From positions 1,060,988 to 1,124,987 of the forward strand of contig NZ_JH719942.1 of the NCBI RefSeq assembly GCF_000275825.1: DNA of 64,000 nucleotides. The letters run 5' to 3'. Made by a program: the position numbers and the translations under genes. This document shows, piece by piece, positions 34,200 to 50,751 of the stretch; position 1 is the first letter of the stretch; each line of letters starts with the position of its first letter. Origin of the DNA: Saprospira grandis DSM 2844 (GTDB lineage: Bacteria > Bacteroidota > Bacteroidia > Chitinophagales > Saprospiraceae). The notes under the pieces are model-generated. The model had not been told where the DNA came from, did no database searches, and was given only the letters and a program-made list of their open reading frames with translations.

Positions 34200-35185
34200 T
34201 GCAAAGCGCTTATTATTGTTGATTACGACAAAAACAAAAAAAGGCTTTGCAACATGGTTGTGAATTTATCAAAAGAATTTATTACGGAAAAAATATTAGC
34301 ATTTTTTCCCGAAAAAAAATTGGCTCGAAAAACCAAAGCGCCTCTGTGGCAAATTGTTAAAGCGATAATTTATAGGCTTAAAACAGGTTGTCAGTGGAGA
34401 GAATTACCGATACAATCTTTTTTTGACGAAGTTCTAATTTGCTGGCAAACAGTATATTACTACTTCAATAGCTGGTCCGAGTCTGGTATTTGGCAAAAAG
34501 TGTGGATCCAATTTCTAGCCCATGAAAAATCTTGTTTAGATTTATCTAGTATACAGCTTGACGGAAGTCATACCCCAGCGAAAAGAGGGGGCGAAGCTGT
34601 GGGTTATCAGGGCCGAAAAAAGTCCAAAACCACAAATGCTCTCTTTCTCACAGATAAAAATGGGCTGCCAATCGCTATGTCTCCGCCTTTTGCGGGAAAC
34701 CATAATGATTTGTTTGAAATCGAGAGTCATTTCCAAAAAATGCTTGCCGATCTGCAGCTTTCAGACATCTCTCCTGATGGTTTATTTATGAATGCTGATG
34801 CAGGGTTTGATAGCAAAAAACTTAGAGAAAACTGCCAAAAAATGGGCATTATCCCTAATATTGACCACAACAAAAGAAATAGAAAAAAAGCTTATTATCA
34901 AGATATTATAGATGAGGAACTTTACAAAGAACGCTTTTCTGTTGAGCGAACTAACGCATGGATTGACGCATTCAAAATTTTACTCATTCGTTTTGAAAGA
35001 AAAGCCGACAACTGGGCGAGTCTACACTATTTAGCCTTTATACTTATTTTCCTAAAACGAAATTTTTAAACAAACTCTTAAATGTAAAGGCGGGTGAATG
35101 CCATCAAATTTAAAAAATTGTTTGGAAAAGGCGCAGTCAAAACGATTTTATAATTTAGATTTTCTTAATAACGCCTTTATTTATT
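34200..35185 (+). mobile_element. IS5-family insertion sequence (approximate ends)
   Basis: A single DDE transposase ORF with imperfect terminal inverted repeats (AAAGCGCTTATTATTG / CAATAAATAAAGGCGTTATT). It sits inside the injection-system locus. Confidence 0.45.
34254..35069 (+). CDS. IS5-family DDE transposase (DUF4096 N-terminus)
   Basis: N-terminus ...WQIVKAIIYRLKTGCQWRELP... is typical of IS5/IS1182-type transposases. Confidence 0.7.
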   Translation: MVVNLSKEFITEKILAFFPEKKLARKTKAPLWQIVKAIIYRLKTGCQWRELPIQSFFDEVLICWQTVYYYFNSWSESGIWQKVWIQFLAHEKSCLDLSSIQLDGSHTPAKRGGEAVGYQGRKKSKTTNALFLTDKNGLPIAMSPPFAGNHNDLFEIESHFQKMLADLQLSDISPDGLFMNADAGFDSKKLRENCQKMGIIPNIDHNKRNRKKAYYQDIIDEELYKERFSVERTNAWIDAFKILLIRFERKADNWASLHYLAFILIFLKRNF

Positions 35186-35460: not shown

Positions 35461-38400
35461 TTAATCGTCTAATTCTCGTTCTTCGGTCATTACAAAGTCG
35501 CCATCAAGCATCATATTGTCTAGGCCAGCTTTGGCTGGAGACTGGAAGGCCACCTCGTCGAGGAGATAGAGTGGATTTTTCTCGAAAGGAATGAGGACAG
35601 ACCAAGGCGTGGTAGCCTTGAGCAAGGGAGAAGAAGAATTATCGATAGCGGTATCACCTACATCGAAGCCCTCGCCGCTGGGGAAGACCTGCACGGCAGA
35701 AAACTTAGTGACAAAATCGACATATTCTCTTTTTTCGATAAAGCTAAGGAGGACATCCTTCGCCATTGTGCCGCCTAATTCAAGTTCTCTTTGGCCGCCA
35801 TACATCCAGGGGCAGACAAAGTCCATAATATCCTTATTCAATTTTTTGAGGAAGGTACCGTTGTTCATACCTTTTTGGAAGCGGAGACCGCCGGCCACTT
35901 TCACTCTTTCGTAGATAGGATTACGGAGTTTGATATCGACAAAAGGCGAAGCTAGCGGGATGAGATAATCGCGGATAGCCTCTAGGGTGGCGTTATTGAC
36001 CATGGGGAGTCGGCCTTGGTGAGAAGCCTTAATTCTGGGTACAACAACGAGGACCACCTGTCCTTTTTCGATGAACTCTTCATTGCCAATATGCGTCACA
36101 CATTTAACTTGGAAGATATCGGGAAACTGGTCGAGGATAAGGCGTTCATAATCCCAGGCAGAGACGGCTCTACCTTTATGGCGGAGGCGTTCGCTGCTTC
36201 GGGTATAGAATTCTTTTTTATTTTCGCCGGGTCGGCCTTCAAAGGAGCCAAAAGGTTGTTGGACCGAGCGAATTTGGACCAATGGGCTAGCCAGATTTTT
36301 AATCTTATTGGGGGCTAATTTTTCTTCTAAGTGTTTCACCTCCTCTTCGGGGTTTCCGGCCCAGGTTGCCGAGATGGCTTGGGTAGAGAGGTGCAAAATG
36401 GTGGGCATACGGCTAGCGTCGCCACGGAGCGAGGCGCGCAGCCAGAACTTTCCTTTTTTGAAGATGGTATTATTATCTGAAATATCTCTGGGGATATCGA
36501 AAGTGATAATTCCGGAGTTATTAAAGAAATTGGTGGTATCGTTTAGGATTTGGGTTTGCGAGAACTCCTTCCATTCGTCATTAACGAGGAAGCTCCAAAC
36601 GATTTCGGCCTGTTTTGCTTCGCTGCTTCGGCCCTTCATCATAGAAAAATAGTCTTGATTTTCTTTGAGTTCGAAGTAGATAGAGAGCGTAGCGGGTGGA
36701 TTAAAATCTTTGACTCCGAGGAAGAGGTAAGCGTCTTCATCGTAGGCGGGAAGCAGAGTGGGTTTAACTGGGCGGCCTTGAGAGAAGTTGCGCATCACAC
36801 CGAAGGGGTGGATATGGAACAACTCTTCAGCCACAGCTCCAGAGCTATTTACGGTACCGATAGACATGATATTGACTTGGGCCGTAGCGGTATAGTCGAT
36901 ACTCATATTTCGGATAACGGGTGTAAAAGGTTGGTTGGGGAGTTTCTTTTTCTCCTTCGTTTTGGGGTCTGCATTATGGGCAGCCACATCGGCGTAGAGA
37001 TTGGGAAACTCATCGTGGGCGAAAGCCGAGGGCGGGTTGGTCAATTCCATGCGGAAATAGCCCGTTTGGGTTTCGCTGGTATAGGTATCAATTTGTTTAA
37101 GGTTGGCCTGAGGTTCTAGGTCAAAGAGTTTAAGGTCGATATGATTTAGGCAGGTAGTCTTACTAATGCCATGAACATTATCTTCATCTTGTTCGAAGAG
37201 GAAATACTCTTTAACATTGTTCTTATTTTTGGGGAAGAACTCCCCTTCTTGGAGGGCCGACAATTTGATTCGGTAATCTTCATTGCGGATACCGAGGCCA
37301 TATTCTCGATAATAGCCACGGAGGCCTTTTGTATTATCGGGTAGATTATGCCAATTGATATTGATTTTGAGGTTAGTCAGTTCCTTTTTGAAGAGCTCGG
37401 TTTTTCCGATAAGGAGATAAGAGCCTAGCTTTGGGGTAGGGCCAAAAGCTTGGAAAGGGATACTACCTTCTAGTTGGCCGTATTCATTGCTTAGGTTGAG
37501 GCGTTTGATTCCTTTGACTTCAACATCAATGTTAATGCGTTCTAGGCTTAGCTCTTTAAGGAAAGAGTAAGAGTAGGTCACATTTTCGTTTTTGTGGAGG
37601 ACCTTCATAACGGGAAGGCTAGTATCGAAATCGGGGCCTAAGACATTGGCATTATAGCCTACGATAGCGGGGGCATTGGCGGATACGGTAGCGAGCAGGC
37701 TAAACTCGGGGATATTCCAATTTTCTGGGGGAAGGAGTTCGCAGCTTTTGGCTTCGATCCAACCTTCTTCTCCAGAGAGGACTAACTTCAGGCTATTTTT
37801 AAAGACCTTAGAGAAGGCATCTTCTTTAGAGAGGCCTTGATTTCGGCTAATATCCTTAATCAGAAGATTTAGGGTATACATAGAAGACTTATCGAATCGC
37901 ATGCGCAACTTGATACTACGGTGGCCTTCTTCCATTTCGAGGATAGGGGCAGCCATGGCCCAGCCTACTTCGGCATAGACCATTTGGCGTTCATCGGAGG
38001 CTTTTTCGAGTAATTCTTCTCCGAAGGAGGGCCATTCCTCTTCATTATTGATAAAGCGTTTGCCTAGGCCATCTCTAGAGTTGGCGATAGGGGCGGCATA
38101 CATATTTGTGATAAGGCGATAAGAGCTCCCGATACCGATTTTGGGATTTTTGCTCACAAAAAGCGTCTTGACTTCATCTATTTTAGCTTGGTTTAGTTCT
38201 ATGCCATAATCGGTTTTATAGCGAATAGCTTTACCGTCTTCATCGACGCCAGCGTCTAGGAGTGTGCCTGCGGGCAGGAAGAAGCTATCAATATGTTTAG
38301 CTAAGTTGAAATAGACATTCACCTGATCGGGTTGCAGGCCTCTTTCTTGCATTTTGAGCACATCGTAATAATAGAAATCGAGATGCTTTTCGGTGAGGGT

Positions 38401-39231
38401 ATTCAGGTGGTCCTGATTATGTTTAAAGAGTTTCACGAAAGCGATAAAGAGCGCCAAATCGGGGCGGTGATCATCTTTTTCTTTGAGTGATTTCTCTAGA
38501 TATTTTGGTGCTTCTTGTACGATATAAGAGAGCACGCTATAGAAGGTCCGAAACTGTAGGCGGATCTTTTTGGTATAGTCTTGAATTTTGAAGTTGGCTC
38601 TGGGGTCTTCTGCCTCGATAGCGCGGGCAGAGAGCAACTTTTTAGAGGGGAACCAGATACTATGAAAATGCTCTTCAATTTCATTGGGGCTATAGGTACC
38701 TGTTTGGTGAAACTCGAGGAAGCGATCTTGTTCTAGGAGTTCGATTAAATTGGAAGAGAGTTGCTGTTTGATGGCGTTCTCTAATTCGTTCTCTAGTTCA
38801 TCGGTATCGCCGGGTTGGAGGGTATTCATTTTGAGGGCATGCACATACCAGTCATTAAACTGTTTGGCCATGTCGAACACCTGTGTATAGAGGGCCTTAA
38901 GCGCTTCTAGGCGGCCTGTGGTGCGGGCTGCATTTTCTAGCTCGGTAATATATTTGGCGTGTTCCTGCTCAATTTTTTTAAGATCGGTTGCAATAATAGA
39001 GGCCAAGAACACCGAGAGGTCATTGCGCAAAAAGCGCGACCAATCTCCTGCGGGGGAATTAGTTTGGTCATAAAACTGGACCATTTCGGCATATTTGGCC
39101 GAAAAGGCGAGGAGGTCACTAGTAGAGCGTTCATCTACCTTAATATATTCTGGGATGAGAGCTTTGAGCAATCGTTGGCTCTGCGTTACGCCATTCCAGG
39201 ACAGGCTAGATTTATTCTTTTTGGTACTCAT
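35461..39231 (-). CDS. large baseplate protein, gp6/gpJ-like (Afp11-like), 1256 aa
   Basis: Sits directly downstream of the gp25-like wedge gene. Its size and C-terminal region fit baseplate-J-like proteins, but the assignment is not motif-proven. Confidence 0.45.
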   Translation of the reverse strand: MSTKKNKSSLSWNGVTQSQRLLKALIPEYIKVDERSTSDLLAFSAKYAEMVQFYDQTNSPAGDWSRFLRNDLSVFLASIIATDLKKIEQEHAKYITELENAARTTGRLEALKALYTQVFDMAKQFNDWYVHALKMNTLQPGDTDELENELENAIKQQLSSNLIELLEQDRFLEFHQTGTYSPNEIEEHFHSIWFPSKKLLSARAIEAEDPRANFKIQDYTKKIRLQFRTFYSVLSYIVQEAPKYLEKSLKEKDDHRPDLALFIAFVKLFKHNQDHLNTLTEKHLDFYYYDVLKMQERGLQPDQVNVYFNLAKHIDSFFLPAGTLLDAGVDEDGKAIRYKTDYGIELNQAKIDEVKTLFVSKNPKIGIGSSYRLITNMYAAPIANSRDGLGKRFINNEEEWPSFGEELLEKASDERQMVYAEVGWAMAAPILEMEEGHRSIKLRMRFDKSSMYTLNLLIKDISRNQGLSKEDAFSKVFKNSLKLVLSGEEGWIEAKSCELLPPENWNIPEFSLLATVSANAPAIVGYNANVLGPDFDTSLPVMKVLHKNENVTYSYSFLKELSLERINIDVEVKGIKRLNLSNEYGQLEGSIPFQAFGPTPKLGSYLLIGKTELFKKELTNLKININWHNLPDNTKGLRGYYREYGLGIRNEDYRIKLSALQEGEFFPKNKNNVKEYFLFEQDEDNVHGISKTTCLNHIDLKLFDLEPQANLKQIDTYTSETQTGYFRMELTNPPSAFAHDEFPNLYADVAAHNADPKTKEKKKLPNQPFTPVIRNMSIDYTATAQVNIMSIGTVNSSGAVAEELFHIHPFGVMRNFSQGRPVKPTLLPAYDEDAYLFLGVKDFNPPATLSIYFELKENQDYFSMMKGRSSEAKQAEIVWSFLVNDEWKEFSQTQILNDTTNFFNNSGIITFDIPRDISDNNTIFKKGKFWLRASLRGDASRMPTILHLSTQAISATWAGNPEEEVKHLEEKLAPNKIKNLASPLVQIRSVQQPFGSFEGRPGENKKEFYTRSSERLRHKGRAVSAWDYERLILDQFPDIFQVKCVTHIGNEEFIEKGQVVLVVVPRIKASHQGRLPMVNNATLEAIRDYLIPLASPFVDIKLRNPIYERVKVAGGLRFQKGMNNGTFLKKLNKDIMDFVCPWMYGGQRELELGGTMAKDVLLSFIEKREYVDFVTKFSAVQVFPSGEGFDVGDTAIDNSSSPLLKATTPWSVLIPFEKNPLYLLDEVAFQSPAKAGLDNMMLDGDFVMTEERELDD

Positions 39232-39296: not shown

Positions 39297-39713
39297 TTAG
39301 AGTTCGGTACCTTCTGCGAGATAGAAGGGATAGACCATATTATTACGAGCATTTACGCCCTTAATTTCATAGACCACATTGACATTCACACGGCCACGGA
39401 GCTGCTCGCTTTCGTCTACATCTACAGAGATGAGGCGGATACGGGGTTCGTGATAAAGGATAGCCGTAGTAATGAGATCTTGTATACGGATTCGGGTAGC
39501 GTTATTGATACTTTGAAAAGCCTGGCTATGGATATCGCAACCATAGCTAGGGTTCATGATTCGTTCGCCGGGGAGAGTAGAAAGAAGGATATTAAGGGAT
39601 TCCCTAATATCTTCTTCATCTTGAGACATCACAATTCCGCGGGTAGAGTCGCTAAAGCGGGGCGGGAAGCTCCAGCCTGAGCCTAAAAATGATTTTTGGA
39701 TATCGTCTGACAT
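39297..39713 (-). CDS. gp25/GPW-like baseplate wedge protein
   Basis: SFLGSGWSFPPRF...ESLNILLSTLPGERIMNPSYGCDIH... is the GPW_gp25 signature. Confidence 0.75.
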   Translation of the reverse strand: MSDDIQKSFLGSGWSFPPRFSDSTRGIVMSQDEEDIRESLNILLSTLPGERIMNPSYGCDIHSQAFQSINNATRIRIQDLITTAILYHEPRIRLISVDVDESEQLRGRVNVNVVYEIKGVNARNNMVYPFYLAEGTEL

Positions 39714-39905: not shown

Positions 39906-40196
39906 CTACCCAATCAATACAGTAGGAGCACCAGCCACTACGGCACCACCATGGCCACAAGAGTCGCCGATACGGGCAGCGGGTTTCCCCTCAATCATGA
40001 CCGTTCCGGAGCCAGAGGCAATAGAATCGCCTGCGCAGGCACAGACGGCAGAGTCGCCAAGGCGGGCGGCTGGAATTCCGGTAACCATAACGGTACCGGC
40101 ACCGCTAACAATGGGCCCACCTACATGAGGTGAAGGACCGGGGCAAACGGCGGGGCAAACGTGCATATCGCCAATTCGAGCAGAGGGCATTCCCAT
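39906..40196 (-). CDS. PAAR-domain spike-tip protein
   Basis: Three PAAR-like repeats (PSARIGD, PAARLGD, PAARIGD) in 96 aa. Confidence 0.85.
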   Translation of the reverse strand: MGMPSARIGDMHVCPAVCPGPSPHVGGPIVSGAGTVMVTGIPAARLGDSAVCACAGDSIASGSGTVMIEGKPAARIGDSCGHGGAVVAGAPTVLIG

Positions 40197-40217: not shown

Positions 40218-42062
40218 TTAATTAATCTTTACTATACCACCTTTCACTTCGCAAAGTCCGCCGCCTTCCAATTTGGCCGAGGCAGAACCTTTGAGTTCCA
40301 TAGTGGTAGAGCCTTCTCCTTTAACGGCAAGGGCCTTGATAGAGAAGTTGGCGACCGCCTCCATTTTGGTATCGGACTTTGATTTTGTCTCGATGTTAAT
40401 GTCGGCCTCCATTTTAATATTTTTCTTGGCTTTAACGACAAAGTCGCCATCGGTCTCGAAGAGAATCCCGTTCTTATCCATCAACATTTTGTTGACGTTT
40501 ACGGGGTCTTCAATCAGGATCGTATCTTCATCATCATTGAGCTCGATAATCATCTTGTCTTCTGTAATGATCTTGACAATATTTTTGCCTGGATCATCTT
40601 GAAGTTCAATTCGGGTTTTTCCCTTATTGATAGAAATCGACTTAAAGATGTTGGGGTCTGCGGGAATATGCGTTTCCTCGGTCGTAATTCCTCTGCCGCT
40701 ACTATACATAGAGCCCAGAATGACCGGATAAGTGGGGTCTGAGTTGAAAAAGCCAACCACCACCTCATCCCCTACTTCGGGATAAAAAACAAAACCGCAA
40801 TCTTCGGTAGCATAATAATGCGCCATACGGGCCCAAACGCCCTCCCCGGCTTGGTCATCAATAATTGGGATATTGATCAGGACGCGAAATTCGCCATCGG
40901 GATCCGAGTCAATTTGCTTGACCACCCCATGTTGCAGCCCATGAATAGCGGGCAACATTCCGCCTGCGGGGCGAGAGCTAGCCGTAATATTGGCCTCCAT
41001 ATAAGGTTGAGGGTCCATACCCAAGCCCACCTCGGTCAACCATTGGCCTTTCATGACCGTATGGCGAATTCGGCTAACATAAGCATCGCCGACAAAGCGA
41101 GTTCCAAAGCCAAATAGCTCAATCGTTTTGCCCAATTCCGCCTTAGCAGAACCATAAAACTTGAGGCTGCCTCGGATACGAGAAAGATGTCCTCTTTGAT
41201 AAACAGAATCGGCCCAAGACTGAATCACATCCTTAGTCACTGGCGGAGTTGTTTTGACCGTATTTTTGGGTTCAATCACTGCCCCCAGCTTTCCAGAGTC
41301 CAAATCCCCCTGAGCATTTACAGCAGGTTTGGCTCCATCGGCTGTAACAATAGCCAAGTCGGTATGGCTCCAACAAGTAGCACCCACCTCCGTATATTGA
41401 TGAGTCGAATCGATATTCATATCCATCTCCACCAAATCATTTCCATAAGAAATGACCAGTTCAGACTTTTCGCTCACCGTAGGTTTCTTAATCGTAATTT
41501 CGCCATCATTGATAATGGTCACCAAGCTATTCACATCGGCCCGAGACTGGATAAAATCCCAGTCCGTACTCCAATACTGAATCAGTTTTTTGTGTGTGCC
41601 CGAGGTCCCTTCCACATCTGCAGAAAGTCCAGCTTCACTCACCACTGCCGAAATAATATCCGAGTCTGCCTGCTCATAAAACACCTTGTTTTTACGACCA
41701 ACCGTTAGTTTGAGCGCCTTATCCTTACACTTGAGCACCAAAGAGGCACCACTATAATTAGACTGCTTGATACCGTGCTCCACCAAAATCCCCTTATAAA
41801 GAGTTTCCTCCTTACCTGGGCCATACCCCGCTTTCACCTCTACCTCCTTGCCTGGTTCAAACATGGCATCTTCAGAGGTAGGAAACTTTTGCTCCCGAGT
41901 ATCTCCGTCCTTAAGTGTAATACGTGCATAAGGAATTTTATTCAGCTCCTTAACAATATCTACACTCTCCACGACCATTGTTTTAGGCACCTCAGTTCCA
42001 TCAATCAGTACAAGTACCGACAGATAGCCTTCGCCCATGCCTTTTACTGGAGAATCTGCCAT
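40218..42062 (-). CDS. VgrG/gpD-gp5-like central spike/baseplate hub protein
   Basis: 614 aa. Its N-terminal half resembles phage late control gene D / VgrG (...KAGYGPGKEETLYKGILVEHGIKQ...LVLKCKDKALKL...). It lies directly upstream of PAAR. Confidence 0.7.
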   Translation of the reverse strand: MADSPVKGMGEGYLSVLVLIDGTEVPKTMVVESVDIVKELNKIPYARITLKDGDTREQKFPTSEDAMFEPGKEVEVKAGYGPGKEETLYKGILVEHGIKQSNYSGASLVLKCKDKALKLTVGRKNKVFYEQADSDIISAVVSEAGLSADVEGTSGTHKKLIQYWSTDWDFIQSRADVNSLVTIINDGEITIKKPTVSEKSELVISYGNDLVEMDMNIDSTHQYTEVGATCWSHTDLAIVTADGAKPAVNAQGDLDSGKLGAVIEPKNTVKTTPPVTKDVIQSWADSVYQRGHLSRIRGSLKFYGSAKAELGKTIELFGFGTRFVGDAYVSRIRHTVMKGQWLTEVGLGMDPQPYMEANITASSRPAGGMLPAIHGLQHGVVKQIDSDPDGEFRVLINIPIIDDQAGEGVWARMAHYYATEDCGFVFYPEVGDEVVVGFFNSDPTYPVILGSMYSSGRGITTEETHIPADPNIFKSISINKGKTRIELQDDPGKNIVKIITEDKMIIELNDDEDTILIEDPVNVNKMLMDKNGILFETDGDFVVKAKKNIKMEADINIETKSKSDTKMEAVANFSIKALAVKGEGSTTMELKGSASAKLEGGGLCEVKGGIVKIN

Positions 42063-42098: not shown

Positions 42099-42287
42099 CT
42101 ATCGATTCATTTTGTACTCCCAAGCTTCCATTGCTCGGCGCACCGCTTCCTGAATCAGGATTTCTTTATCTTTTTCGGTCATGCCTTTTCCCTGTTCCTT
42201 TCCATCTTCTTTTCCCTGACCTTTGCCCCCAGCATTTTGTGCATTCACATTGGTGTTGACATTCATTTCTTTTACTGTTACTGCCAT
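42099..42287 (-). CDS. small hypothetical protein (62 aa) inside the contractile cluster
   Basis: ORF with a K/G/E-rich N-terminus and a helical C-terminus. Confidence 0.3.
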   Translation of the reverse strand: MAVTVKEMNVNTNVNAQNAGGKGQGKEDGKEQGKGMTEKDKEILIQEAVRRAMEAWEYKMNR

Positions 42288-42321
42288 AAGCTGTATATTT
42301 TTTTGCTGTTTTTAAGCAGGT

Positions 42322-42472
42322 TTTTTGGGGGCCTGCGGGCTTCGCCCGCCGCTATGTTGCAGGGCTCGCAAGCCTGCTCGGCCCTTCGCAAAATTTCGCT
42401 ACGCTCATTTTGCTTGGTCTGGCCCTACGGGCCACCCTTCCACAGCGCTAGGCCAAAAACGGCTTCGCTTAA
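42322..42472. repeat. GC-rich interspersed repeat inside the contractile cluster
   Basis: ttttgggggcctgcgggcttcgcccgccgctatgttgcagggctcgcaagcctgctcggccc... Confidence 0.6.
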
Positions 42473-43158
42473 TGAGCTACCACCTTAGAGAAAGCGTAAG
42501 AAAGTTCAATTTCTTGGACCAGCAAATCCTCTGAAGTAGAGTTGAGCGAGCTCAAACTCATTTTAGAGGGATAGGCAAAATTAAACTCCATAGAAATCAA
42601 AATTTGCGGCTTTCCAGATTTTGTCAAGTTGGGGTGCATTACATTTACCTGAATCCCCTTGAGCTTAATTTGCTCATTCCAAGAAGCCATGGCCTCAAAA
42701 CTTTCTTCACACCATTTGGTCCAAGGATCCGAGCTTTTAATGATATCGGGACGCACCAATCGCTTTAGCGTAATGGCCGAGTTTTTCATTTTGTCGGGCA
42801 AGTCAATGGGGTAATTGTAGCCCCCCTCATTATACGTCTTCTTTCCCTCCAAACCAATCTCCAAACCACTCACCTCAATAAAAGAGTTATGAATATTGGT
42901 ATCACCTGGCGTAGGCAAGCCATTAGCTCCGCCACCGTCTATCTTATTGATTGCCTTTTTCATCATTCCTCCAACCATTCCTCCTACAAAGGTATCTACA
43001 GCCCCTTTAGCAACTCCAGCCAAAAAGCTATTCCCTTCATGCTTCTGATCATACATCTGCACATCAAAATAGAAGGCAGGAATAGGTGAGGTCGTTTTTT
43101 CGTCCTCTTTCATGACTTCATCTAAGAAGCGCTCAAATGGGCTAATGGTATTATTCAT
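42469..43158 (-). CDS. tube-fold protein with a Gly-rich insertion (candidate tube initiator / Afp5- or Afp7-like, no LysM)
   Basis: PIPAFYFDVQMYDQ...SFIEVSGLEIGLEGKKTYNEGGYNYPIDLPDKMKNSAITLKRLV...ISMEFNFAYP parallels the gp19-like motifs of the two tube genes. Confidence 0.45.
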   Translation of the reverse strand: MNNTISPFERFLDEVMKEDEKTTSPIPAFYFDVQMYDQKHEGNSFLAGVAKGAVDTFVGGMVGGMMKKAINKIDGGGANGLPTPGDTNIHNSFIEVSGLEIGLEGKKTYNEGGYNYPIDLPDKMKNSAITLKRLVRPDIIKSSDPWTKWCEESFEAMASWNEQIKLKGIQVNVMHPNLTKSGKPQILISMEFNFAYPSKMSLSSLNSTSEDLLVQEIELSYAFSKVVAH

Positions 43159-43220: not shown

Positions 43221-43736
43221 CTAACCGCCCACCTCCGTTTCAAAATGACGGAAGGCAAACTCCATTTCTTCTACAGCCACCTCATTTTCAGATTCGGCAT
43301 CAAAGTTAGAGGGAATATATTTTGTAATAAAGGCCTTTTCAAGTCGCCAGATAAACTGCGTCTCCATATTGTGGTCCAAAAGGTGGATCTCAATAGTTCG
43401 GCGAGAAGTATACTCTCGACTCACCGCTACCTGGTCAAACAAACGGCTCATTTGATCATCTTGAGAAAACGATCCTTTTTTAAGGGTAATACGGCTGTAC
43501 TGCAACATACCGGGCATGCGCTCCTTTCCAAAAAAGGGAGAATTACCATCGCGGTACTCAATCACCCCAATTTCAGCCTCCAAACCATCTACAGTTTGAA
43601 AAGACATTTCAATTGGACCAATAAACACCCGAAAGCTAAAGCGCGTTAGGGGCCAAGTCATTGTGGAATCTGAACTCATAACATCTATTTTTGAGAAAGC
43701 GGCTGCCCAAGTTAACTCGCTAAATACTAGGGCCAA
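43221..43736 (-). CDS. phage tail tube protein (gp19/Afp1-Afp5 family), paralog 2
   Basis: TRFSFRVFIGPIEMSFQTVDGLEAEIGVIEYRDGNSPFFGKERMPGMLQYSRITLKKG. Confidence 0.8.
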   Translation of the reverse strand: MALVFSELTWAAAFSKIDVMSSDSTMTWPLTRFSFRVFIGPIEMSFQTVDGLEAEIGVIEYRDGNSPFFGKERMPGMLQYSRITLKKGSFSQDDQMSRLFDQVAVSREYTSRRTIEIHLLDHNMETQFIWRLEKAFITKYIPSNFDAESENEVAVEEMEFAFRHFETEVGG

Positions 43737-43927: not shown

Positions 43928-44383
43928 TTATGCAGTTTCCATAGTCCACTCTTCGCAGCAGAACTCAAGTTCTTCGATAGCGACTTCAGAGTCAGCTTCT
44001 GCGTCAAAAGGAGTAGGAGTAAACTTAGTAACGAAAGCGTTGAGTAGCGTCCAAGTGAAAACGATCTCATCAGCTTCATTCATCAAGTGAATGATTACAG
44101 TACGGCGCTCAGTGTGTTGGTGGTCAACTGAAAGCTCTTTGTACCACTGATAGAGGTAGTCATCGCTCTGGAAAGTACCCTTCTTCAAGGTGATGTTGCT
44201 ATAAGACATCAAACCGGGACGCTTAGTCTTGTAGAAGTTGGTAGAGTTACCTGCACGGTACTCCATTACAGAAATCTCAGTCTCAAGACCTTCGATTGTC
44301 TGGAAGCCCAAAGTGTTGGGGATATTGTCAATCTCGATAGAGAAATAAAACTTAGGCAGTGGCCATTCTGTTGTTGCAGACAT
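43928..44383 (-). CDS. phage tail tube protein (gp19/Afp1 family), paralog 1
   Basis: PKFYFSIEIDNIPNTLGFQTIEGLETEISVMEYRAGNSTNFYKTKRPGLMSYSNITLKKG. Confidence 0.85.
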   Translation of the reverse strand: MSATTEWPLPKFYFSIEIDNIPNTLGFQTIEGLETEISVMEYRAGNSTNFYKTKRPGLMSYSNITLKKGTFQSDDYLYQWYKELSVDHQHTERRTVIIHLMNEADEIVFTWTLLNAFVTKFTPTPFDAEADSEVAIEELEFCCEEWTMETA

Positions 44384-44497: not shown

Positions 44498-45991
44498 TTA
44501 CTCAGCACCACCGGGCATTTTCTGCTGGAAAGTGATAACGATGAATTCAGCAGGACGAGAGATAGCTACTTTTACAGAAACCTTCATGTAACCATCTAGG
44601 ATATCCTGAGGAGTCATAGTTGTACCCAAACCAACCTCAACTTGGAAAGCCTGATCTTCAGTAGCACCTACCAAAGCACCTGCTTGCCACTGGCTACGCA
44701 AGAAAGAACCAATCATTGATTTAACTGCGATCCAAGTGTTAGCGTCATTGGGACGGAATACGAAAGGCTCACAAGCGAACTTCACAGACTGCTCCAACAT
44801 GATCATAGTACGACGTACGTTGATGTAGCGCCAGTCTTGGCTGTTACCGTCTAGCGTACGAGCACCCCATACCAAAGTACCTTTTCCTACGAAAGGACGG
44901 ATGGCATTGATTGCTTTACCGCTCAAGGGCAAGTTCAAGTCTTCTTGCTCAGTAGCAGAAATGTTTACAGTAGGTCCAGTTACAGAAGAAACTGATACGT
45001 TAGCAGGCGCTTTGAATACACCTACAGTGCTATCTACCAAAGAGTAAAGACCAGCTACAGCTCCAGAAGGAGGCAATACGTTCAACATATCGCGCATTTG
45101 ACCCAATACATCATTGTATACGGGGCTTACCGCCTTCATGATGTTGTGTACAGCAGTTACGTTAGCATCAGCGTCAGCCATCTTAGCGATTTCAGCTTTG
45201 ATCAACTCACCTTTTTCAGCTTTAACGAAACCAGCAGCTACGTTGTCATCTACTTCTTTGTTAAGCAACTCAACGAAACCTTCTAGGTTAGCAACATTAG
45301 TATAGTCAAACTCATCAGCTTGAACAACAGTAGCTTTCAACCAAGGGTAGTAAGCTGCACCGAAGTCTAGGAAGTTGTTGCCATAAGCCTCACGAGCGCA
45401 AGTTACAACATCATCATCTAGCATGCTGCGAGATTCGTTACCGTTCCATACGTCTAGGATAGCGAAGCGGCTACGAGTGTCAGCACCACAATGCTTCAAC
45501 ATTGCTTGTTGTACTGTACCACAGTCACCTTCTTCCAAAGAGATAGCATCGGGAACTACAAGCAAAGTAGGCTCTTGCTCCTTCAACAAAGCAGTGATAC
45601 CACCACCGTTCTCAGTACCCACTAGGGTCTTGGGAGAAACGTCGTCGTTGTATCCACCAACAGAAACGATGTAGCAAGTTCCACCGCCGTTAGCGTAGAA
45701 CATTTGAAGGCTACGGAACAACATGTAGTTACCGGCATCAACAGAAACGGTATAGTTGTCACCTTCAGCATCAACGTTGAAAGTAGTTTTGGGAGCACCA
45801 CCAAAGTAAGATAGGTACTCAACCAATGAAGTAATGCGCATTGGCGTGTTGGTCAAGTCGCGCTTACCAGCAGCGGCTCTCTCTGTGTGGCCAATGAAAG
45901 CAGGGATAGCAGTTCCTACTGCTACAACAGAATTCGAAAAGGCGCTTTTTTCTTCGATATAAACGCCTGGTGTTGCATACTGTTTTGCCAT
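44498..45991 (-). CDS. contractile tail sheath protein
   Basis: The N-terminal TPGVYIEE motif is a hallmark of phage and eCIS sheath proteins. 497 aa. Confidence 0.85.
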   Translation of the reverse strand: MAKQYATPGVYIEEKSAFSNSVVAVGTAIPAFIGHTERAAAGKRDLTNTPMRITSLVEYLSYFGGAPKTTFNVDAEGDNYTVSVDAGNYMLFRSLQMFYANGGGTCYIVSVGGYNDDVSPKTLVGTENGGGITALLKEQEPTLLVVPDAISLEEGDCGTVQQAMLKHCGADTRSRFAILDVWNGNESRSMLDDDVVTCAREAYGNNFLDFGAAYYPWLKATVVQADEFDYTNVANLEGFVELLNKEVDDNVAAGFVKAEKGELIKAEIAKMADADANVTAVHNIMKAVSPVYNDVLGQMRDMLNVLPPSGAVAGLYSLVDSTVGVFKAPANVSVSSVTGPTVNISATEQEDLNLPLSGKAINAIRPFVGKGTLVWGARTLDGNSQDWRYINVRRTMIMLEQSVKFACEPFVFRPNDANTWIAVKSMIGSFLRSQWQAGALVGATEDQAFQVEVGLGTTMTPQDILDGYMKVSVKVAISRPAEFIVITFQQKMPGGAE

Positions 45992-46046: not shown

Positions 46047-47174
46047 TTACAAATATACAATTATTTCGGAAAACACAGCATTCTCAACGTTAAAATCTGT
46101 TTTTAATATTGATTTTGCTGAATGGTTAGGTAAATCTGTAATCCATTCGATTCCATTTTTGCCTCTTTTGGTCCGAAGCTTAAAGCGGCTCAGCTGTTTT
46201 TCCTTAAAAGGAATGGGCGCTGAAGTTTTGACCAAAACGGCCAGTTCGCCAGAAGGCATAAGCACCTCCTCGGCCTCTTCAAAGTCTACTGTTTCGCCAG
46301 CTCGGCCATTATCGTAGGCCTCATGTCCTTTGTGCTGCCTATCCTCATTCATTTCTACTATATAGTAGTGCCAAGGTAAAGCCCTAGCAGGGAAATGGAT
46401 GTTATACTCTCTTTTAGACAACAACTTTCCCTGCTCATCAAAAAAGCGGTAAGGGCTGTCATCCTCCTTATCGATATAAATATCCACCACGCCCCAAATT
46501 CCGGCAGTTCCCTCAGGAGCCAAATAAAAAGTATACTCTTCCAAGCCGTCTAGCTGCAAAATATACTTTCCGGCTGGGGCATCAGGCATAACCACATCTA
46601 CATGGGCATTTTCGCCTTCCTGCTCCAAAAAGAAATAAGACTGGCCCAACTCATCTACCACCTCGATTTCCGCATCCTCCTCTTCATCATCAAATTCGTA
46701 GCGGAAAACAGGGCCTTCAAGTGCTAAGCGATCCATTTCAGAAACCAACTCATCATTAGACAAATTGCCCTCCTCATCTTCAATCTTATCTTCGGCCCGA
46801 TTTGTAAAGTGATAAATATAATCACCAAACTCATAAGGGAGGCCCGTATAGTTAAGGAAGAAAGCATCTTCTACCTTCATCCAAAAACTTAACTTTAAAG
46901 GTTTTTCCAAACTTTCTAAAGCCGGCCCTCCAGAAACTGTCTCGCCATAACCAATCAGCAAATTATTGCCCTCAAAGGCCGTTTTAAGCTGATTTTGCTT
47001 TAGGCGAAAAACCGTATCGGAAGTAGGACTAAGAACTACATCTTTACAGATCTGCTCATCAAAGTAATCGTGCAGGATCGCTATGTTTAATAGCTGATTA
47101 TAGCGAGTTTGGATGTTCAGCAACATATGATGCTCCATCGGATTTCCTCGCCTGCTAAATTTACGTCTCTTCAT
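46047..47174 (-). CDS. hypothetical acidic protein between the cap candidate and the sheath (eCIS-associated, function unknown)
   Basis: 375 aa, D/E-rich, no P-loop. The alternative start MEHHM is 12 codons in. Confidence 0.4.
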   Translation of the reverse strand: MKRRKFSRRGNPMEHHMLLNIQTRYNQLLNIAILHDYFDEQICKDVVLSPTSDTVFRLKQNQLKTAFEGNNLLIGYGETVSGGPALESLEKPLKLSFWMKVEDAFFLNYTGLPYEFGDYIYHFTNRAEDKIEDEEGNLSNDELVSEMDRLALEGPVFRYEFDDEEEDAEIEVVDELGQSYFFLEQEGENAHVDVVMPDAPAGKYILQLDGLEEYTFYLAPEGTAGIWGVVDIYIDKEDDSPYRFFDEQGKLLSKREYNIHFPARALPWHYYIVEMNEDRQHKGHEAYDNGRAGETVDFEEAEEVLMPSGELAVLVKTSAPIPFKEKQLSRFKLRTKRGKNGIEWITDLPNHSAKSILKTDFNVENAVFSEIIVYL

Positions 47175-47484: not shown

Positions 47485-48045
47485 CTAAATCTTGCGAATA
47501 GAAGGAATTTCTGGCTCGGGCTTTTTATGCTCAATCGGAATTGTTTTGAAGCGATAGAGCACCGAAGGCAAATACTTGGCCCCTACCCCATTCCAAACAT
47601 TAGAAATATCGCGAAAATCTGGCGATACCATTTCGGCCACCAAACGACTGAGGCTGCCCGAAAGTGCGGGCGTATTTTGCTCATTAAAAACGCCTTGGCG
47701 GCTTTGGAAAAAAGCGATCACCGAGCTAACAAACTTAAGGCCCTCCAAATAATTTTCATTGGTAAAATAGGCCGAGAACAACATATATATATTGACTTCA
47801 ACTGGGGGGGTCACCTTAGTAAAATTCCCTCGCTTATTGGGCTGATAAGTCGCCGTGCTGCTCTTATTGCGCTCGGCCTCAATGTTAATGATCGTCATCA
47901 CGATCTTATCGGCCTCTTGCACCGCCATCGAGCCATCGGCATTAACCAAATGAGAAATGATGACTTTCTCTTCTAAAATATTGTGTTTAGACTGCAAAAA
48001 GCGGTTGAGCTCGCCCACCACCGCCGTGACAACTTTATCAATCAT
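47485..48045 (-). CDS. DUF4255-like protein (candidate Afp16/Pvc16-type tube/sheath cap)
   Basis: Size ~186 aa and position at the 5' end of the cluster fit. The N-terminus MIDKVVTAVVGELNRFL resembles cap proteins as I recall them. Confidence 0.4.
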   Translation of the reverse strand: MIDKVVTAVVGELNRFLQSKHNILEEKVIISHLVNADGSMAVQEADKIVMTIINIEAERNKSSTATYQPNKRGNFTKVTPPVEVNIYMLFSAYFTNENYLEGLKFVSSVIAFFQSRQGVFNEQNTPALSGSLSRLVAEMVSPDFRDISNVWNGVGAKYLPSVLYRFKTIPIEHKKPEPEIPSIRKI

Positions 48046-48050
48046 AATCC

Positions 48051-48308
48051 TTATTCTTCTTCCTCCTCAGCTTCTGGCTGAGTTAGTGTTTTGATAGAAA
48101 GCGCAATAAAACGCATAATATAGATGCCCAAAAAGGAGGTGAAATAACCAATCAAGTACATCCAGAACACCCAGTTGCGCTCAATTTCACTCATATTCAC
48201 CACCTCTCTGGTATAACCAAAGAACCAAAGGAACACCACCGCCATAGGCAGCGAGACGATCAGGGCCACAATTAGCCAAATGAACTCTCTTGCGATTATT
48301 TTAAACAT
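48051..48308 (-). CDS. small two-TM membrane protein with an acidic tail
   Basis: Two hydrophobic helices. C-terminus EAEEEEE. Its stop is 6 bp before the cap-like gene. Confidence 0.4.
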   Translation of the reverse strand: MFKIIAREFIWLIVALIVSLPMAVVFLWFFGYTREVVNMSEIERNWVFWMYLIGYFTSFLGIYIMRFIALSIKTLTQPEAEEEEE

Positions 48309-48357
48309 GCTCTATTTTTGTTAGCCTCGATATCGTACAAGGTTGTTTTTGATTTTT

Positions 48358-48530
48358 ATTTTTTGGGGCTGCCCCTCCTTTCAGTCGGGTCGGGCTGTGT
48401 CGCAGCTCGCAGGTCTGCTCGGCCCTGCGCTTTTTTCGCTTCGCTCAAAAAGCTGGGTCTGGCCTTCGGCCACTGCTATCCATCCCTCAGCCTGCGGCGG
48501 CTTTGCCGCCTGCTCGCCGCAAAAGGACCT
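48358..48530. repeat. GC-rich interspersed repeat
   Basis: Same architecture as 3524-3686, with ...cctgcggcggctttgccgcctgctcgccgc substituted. Confidence 0.65.
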
Positions 48531-50706: not shown

Positions 50707-50751
50707 AAGTCTTAGGAATAAAATCGTCTGAATAAGAAATTGGGGTCTACA

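What the first reader, a model, noticed from the sequence alone, without database searches (positions are those of the whole stretch)
42099..43158. Slot where a tape-measure gene is expected holds only a third tube-fold protein with a Gly-rich insert and a 62-aa protein
The gene between the tube paralogs and the spike is usually a tape-measure protein in phage tails and many eCIS. Here that slot holds a 229-aa protein with gp19-like tube motifs and a glycine-rich insertion (GGMVGGMMKKAINKIDGGGANG). Next to it is a 62-aa K/G/E-rich protein. No AAA+ ATPase is present anywhere in the window. Tube length may therefore be set differently. Alternatively, the missing core genes are elsewhere, in which case this may be a split or reduced system.
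Basis: partly seen in the sequence, partly recalled or inferred. Interest (0 to 1): 0.5.

Follow-up and report, generated by a model that had tools for sequence, protein, structure and literature searches.

The report
Tube-initiator and spike-plug genes, not tape-measure slot
The two small genes are the tube-starter ring protein (Cis5 type, with an unusual floppy glycine-rich insertion) and the spike plug (Cis6) of a phage-tail-like injection machine in a Saprospiraceae bacterium. That is what normally sits at this position, but four other expected parts are missing from this gene cluster and from all its relatives.

Summary

**The 229-aa protein (42469-43158, minus strand).** It has a gp19 tube fold. 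By sequence and by predicted structure its closest solved relatives are the Cis5/Afp5 tube-initiator proteins of clade-Ib contractile injection systems (CIS): SalCis5, Alg5, Anabaena Cis5 and Pvc5. It carries a ~50-aa insertion rich in Gly, Ala, Ser and Met between strands β1 and β2.

**The 62-aa protein (42099-42287).** It is a DUF5908 protein, the Cis6/Afp6 spike plug.

**The slot.** In Afp-like CIS this slot normally holds Cis5, Cis6 and Cis7. The tape measure (Cis14) normally lies after the baseplate and fibre genes. No tape-measure slot has been vacated.

**What is unusual:**
- The insertion is conserved as a feature in a small Saprospiraceae-only family, is predicted to be disordered, and is hypervariable between close relatives.
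- No Cis7 (PF19266/LysM), Cis12, Cis14 or Afp15-like ATPase is in the window or in the homologous loci checked, which share the same gene order and, where it is visible, the same downstream end.
- All cluster genes are under purifying selection.

The closest characterised system is the Aureispira T6SSiv ("rhapidosome") machine. A second locus holding the missing genes is the most likely explanation, but I could not test it.

The parts
42469..43158 (-). Cis5/Afp5-class tube-initiator (inner-tube adaptor) protein, 229 aa
   Evidence: Pfam gp19 E 7e-13. Best solved relatives by sequence are 9rce_I (158 aa, SalCIS baseplate; I read it as SalCis5) at 1.4e-11, or 2.6e-21 with the family profile, then 7aeb_Y (Alg5) and 7b5h_AM (Anabaena Cis5). 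The AF2 core is confident, and the top four Foldseek PDB hits are Cis5-type chains 7b5h_AM, 7aeb_Y, 6j0n_n (Pvc5) and 9qgl_5A. NCBIfam CIS5_fam gives a weak hit (29.8 bits) and CIS1_fam gives none.
42889..43047 (-). Insertion of about 50 aa rich in Gly/Ala/Ser/Met (about residues 38-90) in the β1-β2 turn of the tube fold
   Evidence: Seen in the alignment to Cis1/Cis5 proteins and as a split HMMER alignment to 9rce_I. pLDDT is below 50 for residues 40-82. An insertion of 44-66 aa is present in all 21 aligned family sequences. Against L012 it shows pN 0.31 and pS 0.76, versus 0.004 and 0.23 in the rest of the gene.
42099..42287 (-). Cis6/Afp6 spike-plug protein (DUF5908), 62 aa
   Evidence: Pfam PF19265 over the full length. 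Its orthologues in relatives are also called DUF5908. In the control locus L009, DUF5908 (E 8e-15) sits between Cis5 and Cis7. The family profile's top PDB hit is 'inner protein (Algo6)' 7aef_t, and Asl3322 (Anabaena Cis6) is fifth; both align from residue 1, though the E-values (0.2 and 0.8) are not significant alone. The layout of N-terminal strand, G/K/E loop and C-terminal helix matches the published Alg6 description (PMC8894135).
42321..42455 (.). Copy of a dispersed GC-rich intergenic repeat, filling the gap between the Cis5-like and Cis6 genes
   Evidence: Repeat families D7, D14, I13, I15 and I17; sequence. The gap is only 9-41 nt in L001, L004 and L010.
43221..43679 (-). Second tube paralog (Cis1-like), 152 aa from the ATG
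   Evidence: Pfam gp19 1.8e-27. Best PDB hits are Cis1 proteins All3324 and Alg1. Its closest orthologues elsewhere carry N-terminal extensions of 250-620 aa made of tandem repeats. No remnant of these is present in the window.
43928..44383 (-). Major tube protein (Cis1), 151 aa
   Evidence: Pfam gp19 3.5e-34. It is 100% identical in L012. A terminator-like hairpin lies just downstream at 43902-43873.
44498..45991 (-). Sheath (Cis2)
   Evidence: Phage_sheath_1C and Phage_sheath_1.
46047..47174 (-). Probable cap adaptor (Cis16B)
   Evidence: Only weak sequence hits to All3326 (E 0.016) and 'SalCis16b - cap' (E 1.5). Its position after Cis16A matches Anabaena and AlgoCIS.
47485..48045 (-). Cap / tube terminator (Cis16A, Pvc16_N)
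   Evidence: Pfam PF14065 1.5e-31.
40218..42062 (-). VgrG-like spike (Cis8)
   Evidence: Phage_base_V 6e-20. It starts 36 nt after the Cis6 stop, so no Cis7 gene fits between them.
39906..40196 (-). PAAR spike tip (Cis10)
   Evidence: PAAR_motif 7e-25.
39297..39713 (-). gp25-like sheath initiator (Cis9)
   Evidence: GPW_gp25 4.7e-26.
35461..39231 (-). Baseplate Cis11 (gp6-like with cage extension), 1256 aa
   Evidence: PDB hits: All3317 1.2e-121, Alg11 6e-118, SalCis11 2.8e-109, Pvc11, Afp11. Its size is close to that of All3317 (Cis11, 1231 aa), which has a separate Cis12 in Anabaena, so I read it as Cis11 alone rather than a Cis11-Cis12 fusion.
34148..35076 (+). IS (IS4/IS5-type DDE transposase, ORF 34254-35069) inserted about 20 nt upstream of the next gene
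   Evidence: Pfam DUF4096 and DDE_Tnp_1. It is absent from the otherwise collinear relative L012.
33336..34127 (-). Cis13-like fibre or anchor protein, 263 aa; last gene of the cluster
   Evidence: Its N-terminal 40 aa match the N-terminus of All3316 (Cis13), E 0.009. It is the last conserved gene in L001, L003, L004, L008, L010 and L012.
48051..53755 (-). Conserved upstream genes: an 85-aa membrane protein, two GH18-domain proteins with C-terminal membrane segments, and a 357-aa secreted protein. These are candidate envelope components.
   Evidence: Glyco_hydro_18 hits. The same genes in the same order are seen in L001, L004, L008, L012 and a further contig. dN/dS is 0.04 or lower for the 85-aa and GH18 genes (the 357-aa gene was not included). 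The envelope role is inferred, not shown.

Best explanation
The window carries the main gene cluster of a clade-Ib, T6SSiv-like contractile injection system of a Saprospiraceae bacterium, the machine historically seen as 'rhapidosomes'.

**The two genes in the finding.** They are ordinary parts of the junction between spike and tube.
- The 62-aa protein is the Cis6 plug. By analogy with Alg6 it forms a trimer whose N-terminal strands line the gp27-like cavity of the VgrG trimer and whose C-terminal helices bundle together. It nucleates assembly.
- The 229-aa protein is a Cis5-class tube initiator. It forms a hexameric ring of the tube fold on which the Cis1 tube polymerises.
- Its ~50-aa Gly/Ala/Ser/Met-rich insertion in the β1-β2 turn is a lineage-specific, flexible, fast-evolving appendage.

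**What is shown.** The family assignments, the position of the insertion, its predicted disorder, its conservation as a feature, and purifying selection on the genes.

**What is inferred.**
- The ring stoichiometry and position.
- That the Cis5-like ring sits directly on the spike, because no Cis7 gene exists in the locus.
- That the absent Cis7, Cis12, Cis14 and Cis15 functions are encoded at a second locus, as in the split T6SSiv of Amoebophilus, rather than dispensed with.

The slot was never a tape-measure slot in this class of system.
For: - **Family assignments.** for Cis5; for Cis6, with the Alg6 description in PMC8894135.
- **Canonical order.** Cis5, DUF5908, PF19266 (Cis7), VgrG in control locus L009. 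Afp gene order is in PMC6899500.
- **Clade placement.** Cis11, Cis16B and Cis13 match Anabaena tCIS, AlgoCIS and SalCIS.
- **Taxonomy.** Related loci are from Saprospira and Saprospiraceae MAGs. The window also encodes T9SS/SprB-type proteins.
- **Same architecture elsewhere.** The same gene order is seen in the related loci examined, about ten, several of them only partial.
- **Selection.** dN/dS is 0.00-0.13 for the cluster genes against L012; the short Cis6 gene gives a noisy 0.5.
- **Cis12 argues for a second locus.** In the solved relatives Cis11 pairs with Cis12 as a hexamer of heterodimers (PMC8894136), and a gp6/gp7-like pair is, from established knowledge, part of every known contractile baseplate. 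It is absent here, so at least one core gene must lie elsewhere. Split loci are documented for T6SSiv and 13 other genomes (PMC6899500).
- **Closest system.** Aureispira T6SSiv is a Saprospiraceae CIS anchored in the envelope, and its authors equate rhapidosomes with it (bioRxiv 10.1101/2024.01.29.577165).
Against: - The second locus was not seen. Only 64 kb of this genome, and at most 10 kb either side in relatives, could be read.
- The NCBIfam CIS5 equivalog cutoff is far from met (29.8 against 260 bits). The protein is Cis5-like, not a strict equivalog.
- The Cis6-to-Alg6 link rests on DUF5908 just above threshold plus non-significant PDB profile hits.
- The Aureispira cluster is reported to contain cis14, whereas no tape-measure candidate is in this cluster. 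Either the two clusters differ, or one of the genes I name differently is their cis14. Their Table S1 is an image and could not be read.
- The role of the insertion is unknown, and I could not determine whether it faces the lumen or the baseplate.
Confidence: 0.8

Rival explanations
1. The system truly lacks a tape measure and an AAA+ loader, and tube length is set by another device or not set at all. In relatives the device could be the variable tandem-repeat N-terminal extension of the second tube paralog. That gene sits between the major tube gene and the Cis5-like gene.
For: - No tape measure or Afp15-like gene is in the window or in any related locus.
- Orthologues of tube2 carry 250-620 aa of 37-54-aa repeats. 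Motif counts track the length of the extension (r 0.90 across the proteins compared, including ones without repeats). More distant relatives carry a charged helical extension instead.
- An extension of that size would be hard to fit between tube and sheath, so it most plausibly lies in the lumen (inference).
Against: - The window's own tube2 has no extension at all, and no remnant exists in the window. This device therefore cannot set length here.
- Cis12 is also missing, which points to genes elsewhere rather than to a new ruler.
- The related Aureispira machine has a uniform 420 ± 8 nm length and a reported cis14.
- The AF2 model of a repeat-bearing orthologue was uninformative (mean pLDDT 43).
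Confidence: 0.12
2. Functional shift. The Cis5-like protein has taken over the Cis7 position, the ring that sits directly on the spike. Its Gly-rich insertion, plus the Gly-rich N-terminus present in most relatives, substitutes for the LysM arm that ties the tube to the wedges. The second Cis1-like paralog then serves as the Cis5-position ring.
For: - There are three tube-fold genes, as in canonical clusters, but none is PF19266/LysM.
- The Cis5-like gene is the tube-fold gene nearest Cis6 and VgrG.
- The gap between Cis6 and VgrG is 36 nt.
- The insertion is conserved as a feature in all 21 aligned family sequences.
Against: - The insertion is predicted to be disordered and is hypervariable, which is not typical of a fixed structural tether.
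- A Cis7 gene could sit at another locus together with Cis12, its known binding partner.
- There is no structural evidence on where the insertion points.
Confidence: 0.3
3. The cluster is a decaying remnant that has lost Cis7, Cis12, Cis14 and Cis15 and is no longer functional. The IS and the intergenic repeats would be signs of that decay.
For: - An IS sits between Cis11 and the Cis13-like gene.
- Repeat elements lie in several intergenic gaps of the operon.
- Four expected genes are missing.
Against: - All 15 compared genes are intact, with dN/dS of 0.00-0.13 against L012; only the short Cis6 gene is higher, at a noisy 0.5.
- The same gene set recurs in diverged Saprospiraceae down to 34% identity.
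- The IS is strain-specific and intergenic.
Confidence: 0.03

Closest known systems
Cis5 / Afp5 / Pvc5 / Alg5 tube initiator (inner-tube adaptor) of Afp-like contractile injection systems
   Same: - gp19 tube fold.
- Best sequence and structure matches are SalCis5, Alg5, Anabaena Cis5 and Pvc5.
- Shares the C-terminal 'AYP..S.S.L..TS' signature with the Cis5 of L009.
- The gene lies after the Cis1 genes and before Cis6.
   Different: - 229 aa instead of about 147-167 aa.
- A ~50-aa Gly/Ala/Ser/Met-rich, disordered, hypervariable insertion in the β1-β2 turn.
- Most relatives also have a Gly-rich N-terminus.
- Far below the NCBIfam CIS5 equivalog cutoff.
- No Cis7 partner is encoded next to it.
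Cis6 / Afp6 / Alg6 spike plug (Pfam DUF5908)
   Same: - Size of about 50-62 aa.
- Layout of N-terminal strand, flexible loop and C-terminal helix.
- Position directly before the spike module.
- DUF5908 hit.
- Top PDB profile hits are Alg6 and Asl3322.
   Different: - Longer and more strongly K/G/E-rich loop.
- Followed directly by VgrG instead of Cis7.
- Similarity to the solved plugs is statistically weak.
Aureispira sp. CCB-QB1 T6SSiv (ixotrophy machine; Lien et al., bioRxiv 10.1101/2024.01.29.577165)
   Same: - Saprospiraceae host.
- Clade-Ib CIS with a caged Cis11.
- Envelope-associated accessory genes are plausible.
- IS elements are associated with the cluster.
- 'Rhapidosomes' are equated with this machine.
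   Different: - That cluster is reported to contain cis14 (tape measure), and its particles are 420 ± 8 nm long. No tape-measure candidate is in this window.
- I could not read their gene table, so a gene-by-gene comparison is missing.
Amoebophilus asiaticus T6SSiv and other 'split loci' (Chen et al. 2019, PMC6899500)
   Same: - Clade Ib.
- Core genes are distributed over more than one genomic locus while the machine still works.
   Different: There, afp1/5 and afp11 are the genes that are separated. Here they are together, and Cis7, Cis12, Cis14 and Cis15 are the ones missing. The second locus has not been seen.
Phage tail tape-measure proteins / Afp14 / Alg14
   Same: Only positional: in phage tails the tape-measure gene lies between the tube and hub genes.
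   Different: Neither gene is long, helical or gp29-like. In Afp-like CIS the tape-measure gene lies after the fibre gene.

Membership tests
Cis5/Afp5 tube initiator | gp19/Hcp-type tube fold | tested here: met
   Pfam PF06841 E 7e-13. The AF2 core has pLDDT 70-91. Foldseek gives probability 1.0 to CIS tube proteins.
Cis5/Afp5 tube initiator | Closer to Cis5 proteins than to Cis1 or Cis7 proteins | tested here: met
   PDB sequence ranking puts 9rce_I, Alg5 and All3323 ahead of Pvc1, Afp1 and All3324. The top four Foldseek hits are Cis5-type chains. NCBIfam gives a CIS5_fam hit and no CIS1_fam hit. There is no PF19266 hit.
Cis5/Afp5 tube initiator | NCBIfam CIS5_fam equivalog score cutoff (260 bits) | tested here: not met
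   29.8 bits. The protein is therefore called Cis5-like or Cis5-class, not an equivalog.
Cis5/Afp5 tube initiator | Gene between Cis1 and Cis6 | tested here: met
   Gene order; compare L009.
Cis5/Afp5 tube initiator | Forms the hexameric ring between Cis7 and the first Cis1 ring | not testable with these tools
   Needs cryo-EM or a multimer model. No Cis7 gene is present in the locus.
Cis6/Afp6 spike plug (DUF5908) | Pfam PF19265 gathering score | tested here: met
   28.3 against 27.7 bits, full length. Orthologues are also annotated PF19265.
Cis6/Afp6 spike plug (DUF5908) | About 50-60 aa with an N-terminal strand, disordered loop and C-terminal helix | tested here: met
   Seen in the sequence and the family alignment: a conserved N-terminus (MAVTVKEL.L...V), a variable G/K loop, and a conserved helix (DKEIIIREAVRRAMEE). 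This matches the Alg6 description. The secondary structure is judged from sequence, not modelled.
Cis6/Afp6 spike plug (DUF5908) | Detectable homology to structurally solved plugs (Alg6, Asl3322) | tested here: inconclusive
   They rank first and fifth of 177,635 PDB sequences and align from residue 1, but with E-values of 0.2 and 0.8.
Cis6/Afp6 spike plug (DUF5908) | Trimer inside the gp27-like cavity of the spike | not testable with these tools
   Structural or biochemical experiment required.
Cis7/Afp7 (PF19266 CIS_tube + LysM) tube initiator | PF19266 and/or a LysM domain | tested here: not met
   The 229-aa protein hits only PF06841. The control, L009 ORF 8634-9323, hits PF19266 at 4e-42. 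No ORF of at least 120 aa in the window hits PF19266 or LysM.
Tape-measure protein (Afp14/Alg14/gp29-like) | Long (hundreds of aa), largely α-helical, length-determining | tested here: not met
   The proteins are 229 aa with a β-rich tube fold, and 62 aa. Alg14 is 526 aa and helical.
Clade-Ib / T6SSiv-like contractile injection system (the cluster as a whole) | Sheath, tube, Cis16A/B cap, VgrG, PAAR, gp25 and caged Cis11 homologous to AlgoCIS, tCIS and SalCIS | tested here: met
Clade-Ib / T6SSiv-like contractile injection system (the cluster as a whole) | Complete core set including Cis7, Cis12, Cis14 and Cis15 in the locus | tested here: not met
   Absent from the window and from all related loci examined.
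Clade-Ib / T6SSiv-like contractile injection system (the cluster as a whole) | Inner-membrane anchoring and contact-dependent firing (T6SS mode) | not testable with these tools
   Only suggested by the conserved membrane and GH18 genes upstream and by the Aureispira precedent.

The most novel reading that the evidence does not exclude
Saprospiraceae injection machines may build the spike-tube junction without a Cis7/LysM ring and without a free-standing tape measure. Instead, tube-fold paralogs would carry the extra functions as appendages:
- a hypervariable glycine-zipper-like loop in the Cis5-type ring;
- Gly-rich N-terminal and C-terminal tails;
- in most lineages, a tandem-repeat N-terminal extension of a second tube paralog, threading the lumen as a built-in ruler or cargo.

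The window's lineage would be a natural 'extension-less' variant.
Probability: 0.12. Interest if true: 0.7.

Novelty: new variant of a known kind. Interest (0 to 1): 0.35.

Why it matters
The finding does not reveal a new length-setting mechanism. It does mark out a coherent Saprospiraceae family of injection machines, relatives of the predatory Aureispira T6SSiv, with three notable properties:
- The main locus consistently omits Cis7, Cis12, the tape measure and the loader ATPase.
- The tube initiator carries a fast-evolving disordered insertion.
- In relatives, a tube paralog carries variable tandem repeats.

If the missing genes are truly absent, or if the tube appendages replace them, that would change the accepted minimal parts list for contractile injection systems. 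It would also give natural length or cargo variants useful for engineering. If the genes sit at a second locus, this is simply another split CIS.

Tried and rejected
- **Tape-measure identity for either gene.** Rejected on size, fold and family.
- **Cis7/gp48/gp54-like identity for the 229-aa protein.** Rejected: no PF19266 or LysM hit and no Cis7 chain among the PDB hits, while the L009 control scores 4e-42.
- **Tape measure, Afp15, Cis12 or Cis7 elsewhere in the 64 kb.** Every ORF of at least 120 aa was scanned or read, and none was found.
- **Remnant of the relatives' tube2 repeat extension in the window.** None found by tblastn.
- **AF2 of a repeat-bearing tube2 orthologue (P0028).** Mean pLDDT 43, uninformative.
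- **PDB profile search for Cis6.** The correct proteins come first, but the E-values are not significant.
- **Aureispira gene table (which gene is cis14).** The tables are images and are not in the held supplement, and the Science version is not held.
- **Genome-collection scan.** It returned only MAG relatives, not the window's own genome and not Aureispira, so the second-locus hypothesis could not be tested.
- **Orientation of the insertion.** Model coordinates are not exposed to scripts, so I could not compute whether it faces the lumen or the outside.
- **Literature search for DUF5908.** No papers found.
Full report
**Observation**

The minus strand of the window between about 33.3 and 53.8 kb carries one long gene cluster. 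Pfam assigns the following:

| Coordinates | Assignment |
|---|---|
| 47485-48045 | Pvc16_N cap |
| 44498-45991 | sheath |
| 43928-44383 | gp19 tube protein |
| 43221-43736 | gp19 tube protein (more probably 152 aa from the ATG at 43679) |
| 42469-43158 | third gp19-fold protein, 229 aa (E 7.4e-13, residues 90-221) |
| 42099-42287 | 62-aa protein matching DUF5908 over its full length (28.3 bits, cutoff 27.7) |
| 40218-42062 | VgrG spike |
| 39906-40196 | PAAR |
| 39297-39713 | gp25 |

The 1256-aa protein at 35461-39231 has no Pfam hit. It matches the solved Cis11 baseplate proteins of Anabaena tCIS (1.2e-121), AlgoCIS and SalCIS.

The statement that no AAA+ protein exists in the window is literally wrong. 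FtsH lies at 59948-61975. No Afp15-like ATPase is present.

**What the 229-aa protein is**

- *Sequence.* Against all PDB sequences the best match is 9rce_I (158 aa, E 1.4e-11; 2.6e-21 with a family profile). This chain belongs to the SalCIS baseplate (PMC13266070), and I read it as SalCis5. Next come 7aeb_Y (the 147-aa AlgoCIS chain I read as Alg5) and 7b5h_AM (All3323, which I infer from gene order to be Anabaena Cis5). All three rank ahead of the major tube proteins Pvc1, Afp1 and All3324.
- *Structure.* An AlphaFold2 model built on 21 family sequences has a confident tube-fold core (pLDDT 70-91 for about residues 28-39 and 83-229) and a low-confidence segment at 40-82. The four best Foldseek hits in the PDB are the Cis5-type chains 7b5h_AM, 7aeb_Y, 6j0n_n (Pvc5) and 9qgl_5A.
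- *NCBIfam.* There is a weak hit to CIS5_fam ('inner tube adaptor'; 29.8 bits, far below the 260-bit equivalog cutoff) and none to CIS1_fam.
- *Insertion.* Aligned with Cis1 and Cis5 proteins, the protein shows one large insertion of about 50 residues between β1 (PIPAFYFDVQMY) and β2 (SFIEVSGLE). The others have a 4-10-residue turn there. It shares a C-terminal 'AYP..S.S.L..TS' signature with the Cis5 of a canonical locus.

The protein is thus a Cis5-class tube initiator with an insertion. It is not a Cis7/Afp7-type protein, because it has no PF19266 or LysM hit. It is not a tape measure.

**What the 62-aa protein is**

A canonical CIS locus retrieved with the same query (L009, a gammaproteobacterial MAG) gives a clean control. 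Its order is sheath, tube, 152-aa gp19 protein, 59-aa DUF5908 (E 8e-15), 229-aa PF19266 'CIS_tube', VgrG, gp25, CIS_spike_tip, Cis11. DUF5908 is therefore the Afp6/Cis6 family.

The cryo-EM papers on AlgoCIS and Anabaena tCIS show that Cis6 is a trimeric plug in the spike cavity. It has an N-terminal strand, a disordered loop and a C-terminal helix, and it is required for assembly (PMC8894135 and PMC8894136).

The window protein and its orthologues have this layout. A profile of them ranks 'inner protein (Algo6)' first and Asl3322 fifth among 177,635 PDB sequences. Both align from residue 1, although the E-values (0.2 and 0.8) are not significant alone. Taken together with position and the Pfam match, I consider the Cis6 assignment well supported.

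**The premise of the finding**

In Afp-type systems the genes are numbered in gene order. afp5, afp6 and afp7 lie between the tube or sheath genes and the spike gene afp8. The tape measure afp14 follows the fibre gene afp13 (PMC6899500, Table 1). Alg14 (526 aa) has been shown experimentally to be the ruler of AlgoCIS, and Alg15 to be the cargo-loading AAA+ (bioRxiv 10.64898/2026.05.27.728243).

The slot examined is thus where Cis5, Cis6 and Cis7 belong. The only thing missing at that position is Cis7, since the Cis6 stop and the VgrG start are 36 nt apart.

**What is missing, and whether it is a local accident**

No Cis7 (PF19266/LysM), Cis12, tape measure or Afp15-like gene was found in any ORF of at least 120 aa in the 64 kb. 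The flanks are housekeeping or unrelated genes:
- Below 33.3 kb: PDH E1α, a STAND-WD40 NTPase and an outer-membrane protein.
- Above 53.8 kb: a SprB/T9SS protein, a bicarbonate transporter and FtsH.

The Cis5-like protein belongs to a small family. Only 21 clusters were found among 5.8 billion proteins, all 225-257 aa long apart from one shorter, apparently partial, 174-aa member. The named genomes that carry it are Saprospira or Saprospiraceae MAGs.

The related loci I could read (L001, L003, L004, L008, L010-L014 and two contigs without DNA) all show the same gene order as far as each contig extends:

1. (345-357-aa protein)
2. GH18
3. GH18
4. 85-aa membrane protein
5. Cis16A
6. Cis16B
7. 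sheath
8. tube
9. tube2
10. Cis5-like
11. DUF5908
12. VgrG
13. PAAR
14. gp25
15. Cis11
16. Cis13-like

After the Cis13-like gene come unrelated genes that differ between lineages. The downstream end of the cluster is therefore firm, and the omission is a family trait.

Against the closest relative (L012), all 15 genes compared are intact. dN/dS is 0.00-0.13 for fourteen of them; the short Cis6 gene gives a noisy 0.5. So this is not a decaying remnant.

In the solved relatives Cis11 pairs with Cis12 as a hexamer of heterodimers, and a gp6/gp7-like wedge pair is, from established knowledge, part of every known contractile baseplate. Because Cis12 is absent, at least that gene must be elsewhere. 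The simplest reading is a second locus that also holds Cis7, Cis14 and Cis15. Split loci are documented for the Amoebophilus T6SSiv and 13 other genomes. I could not test this, because neither the rest of this genome nor more than 10 kb either side in relatives was accessible.

**The insertion**

It is present in every family member at 44-66 aa and is 29-68% Gly+Ala+Ser+Met. It often contains a small-residue amphipathic stretch such as LGANLLSAAQGMV. Most relatives also have a Gly-rich N-terminus (MSFGGLGGGLIGGALAGMMGG...), which the window lineage lacks.

Between the window and L012 the divergence differs sharply by region:

| Region | Nonsynonymous (pN) | Synonymous (pS) |
|---|---|---|
| 39 aligned insertion codons | 0.31 | 0.76 |
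| Other 185 codons | 0.004 | 0.23 |

Divergence that is elevated at both kinds of site suggests that this segment was exchanged by recombination or is otherwise hypervariable. The segment is short and hard to align, so I treat this as an indication only. Its function and orientation (lumen or baseplate side) remain unknown.

One attractive but unproven idea is that, with no Cis7 in the locus, the Cis5-like ring sits directly on the spike and the flexible Gly-rich elements help adapt that junction.

**A related observation that bears on 'length set differently'**

The gene just upstream, tube2, is Cis1-like. It is 152 aa in the window and in L012/L013. Its closest orthologues elsewhere are 405-780 aa because of an N-terminal extension of 250-620 aa built from tandem 37-54-aa repeats (motif NPV.GSHTHALHG[RK]AG). 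Motif counts track the length of the extension (r 0.90). More distant relatives carry shorter extensions, in one case a charged helical one, and many have Gly-rich C-terminal tails.

An extension of that size would be hard to fit between tube and sheath, so it most plausibly lies in the lumen (inference). That would make it a candidate built-in ruler or cargo. It is absent from this window with no remnant, so it cannot explain length control here. An AF2 model of one such protein was uninformative.

**Closest known system**

The Aureispira sp. CCB-QB1 T6SSiv is a Saprospiraceae clade-Ib CIS. It is anchored in the inner membrane with a trans-envelope complex and an antenna, and it kills prey during ixotrophy. 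Its authors equate it with the classical 'rhapidosomes' and note a related CIS cluster in Saprospira grandis (bioRxiv 10.1101/2024.01.29.577165).

That cluster is reported to contain cis14, and the particles are a uniform 420 ± 8 nm. IS insertions in cis14 and cis11 switch the system off reversibly. I could not read its gene table, so I cannot say which gene is cis14 or whether that cluster has the architecture seen here.

The conserved GH18 and membrane genes upstream of the present cluster fit an envelope-anchored mode, but that is inference.

**Verdict**

- The interpretation that a tape-measure slot has been replaced is not supported.
- The genes are a Cis5-class initiator (a new variant, with a conserved but hypervariable disordered insertion) and the Cis6 plug.
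- The wider point, that no tape measure or loader ATPase is in the locus, is correct. It extends to Cis7 and Cis12 and is conserved across the family. It is most likely explained by a second locus.
- Interest is moderate to low unless a whole-genome scan shows that these genes are truly absent.

Noticed in passing
window 43221-43679; L001 8555-9976, L010 483-2597, L004 7619-9913: The second tube paralog is 152 aa here. Its closest orthologues are 405-780 aa, with an N-terminal extension of tandem 37-54-aa repeats (motif NPV.GSHTHALHG[RK]AG) of variable copy number and a Gly-rich C-terminal tail. The window holds no remnant of the repeats. The extension is a possible luminal ruler or cargo fused to a tube protein.
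   Followed up: partly
window 34148-35076 (transposase ORF 34254-35069, + strand): An IS of about 930 bp of IS4/IS5 type is inserted about 20 nt upstream of the Cis13-like gene, between it and Cis11. It is absent from the otherwise collinear relative L012. In Aureispira, IS insertion and excision in CIS genes acts as an on/off switch.
   Followed up: partly
window, at least 15 copies, e.g. 35237-35385, 39784-39904, 42321-42455, 47362-47479, 48343-48510, 53901-54042, 54329-54453, 59326-59889: A dispersed GC-rich intergenic repeat of about 90-180 nt (core GGGCCGAGCAGACCTGCGAGCCC) occurs in both orientations, including inside the CIS operon. It generates the many spurious small ORFs with 'GSQACSALR'-like peptides. 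It looks REP- or MITE-like.
   Followed up: partly
window 48051-53755 (minus strand): An 85-aa membrane protein, two GH18-domain proteins with C-terminal membrane segments and a 357-aa secreted protein lie immediately upstream of the cap gene in the relatives whose contigs reach that far. The 85-aa and GH18 genes are under strong purifying selection. They are candidate envelope or peptidoglycan-remodelling parts of the machine.
   Followed up: partly
window 42889-43047 versus L012 10112-10258: The insertion segment of the Cis5-like gene is far more diverged from the close relative at both synonymous (0.76 versus 0.23) and nonsynonymous (0.31 versus 0.004) sites than the rest of the gene. This suggests a recombined or hypervariable cassette.
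   Followed up: partly
window 43873-43902 (minus strand): A strong terminator-like hairpin (13-bp stem plus T-run) lies directly after the major tube gene. It may act as an attenuator separating the highly expressed sheath and tube genes from the initiator and baseplate genes.
   Followed up: no
window 54521-57205 (minus strand): An 894-aa protein with SprB repeats and a T9SS C-terminal sorting domain lies just upstream of the cluster. Whether it relates to the extracellular 'antenna' or to gliding is unknown.
   Followed up: no
window 19985-23070: Three tandem paralogs of DUF6976 (325-327 aa each, E about 1e-115) lie next to a protoglobin-STAS protein at 19106-19978.
   Followed up: no
window 13409-13486 and 13529-13606: A perfect 78-nt direct duplication 120 nt apart has a tRNA-like sequence. 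These are probably two identical tRNA genes. ARAGORN was not run.
   Followed up: no
window 28208-31567 (minus strand): A 1119-aa nSTAND1 NTPase with WD40 repeats lies close to the downstream end of the CIS cluster.
   Followed up: no
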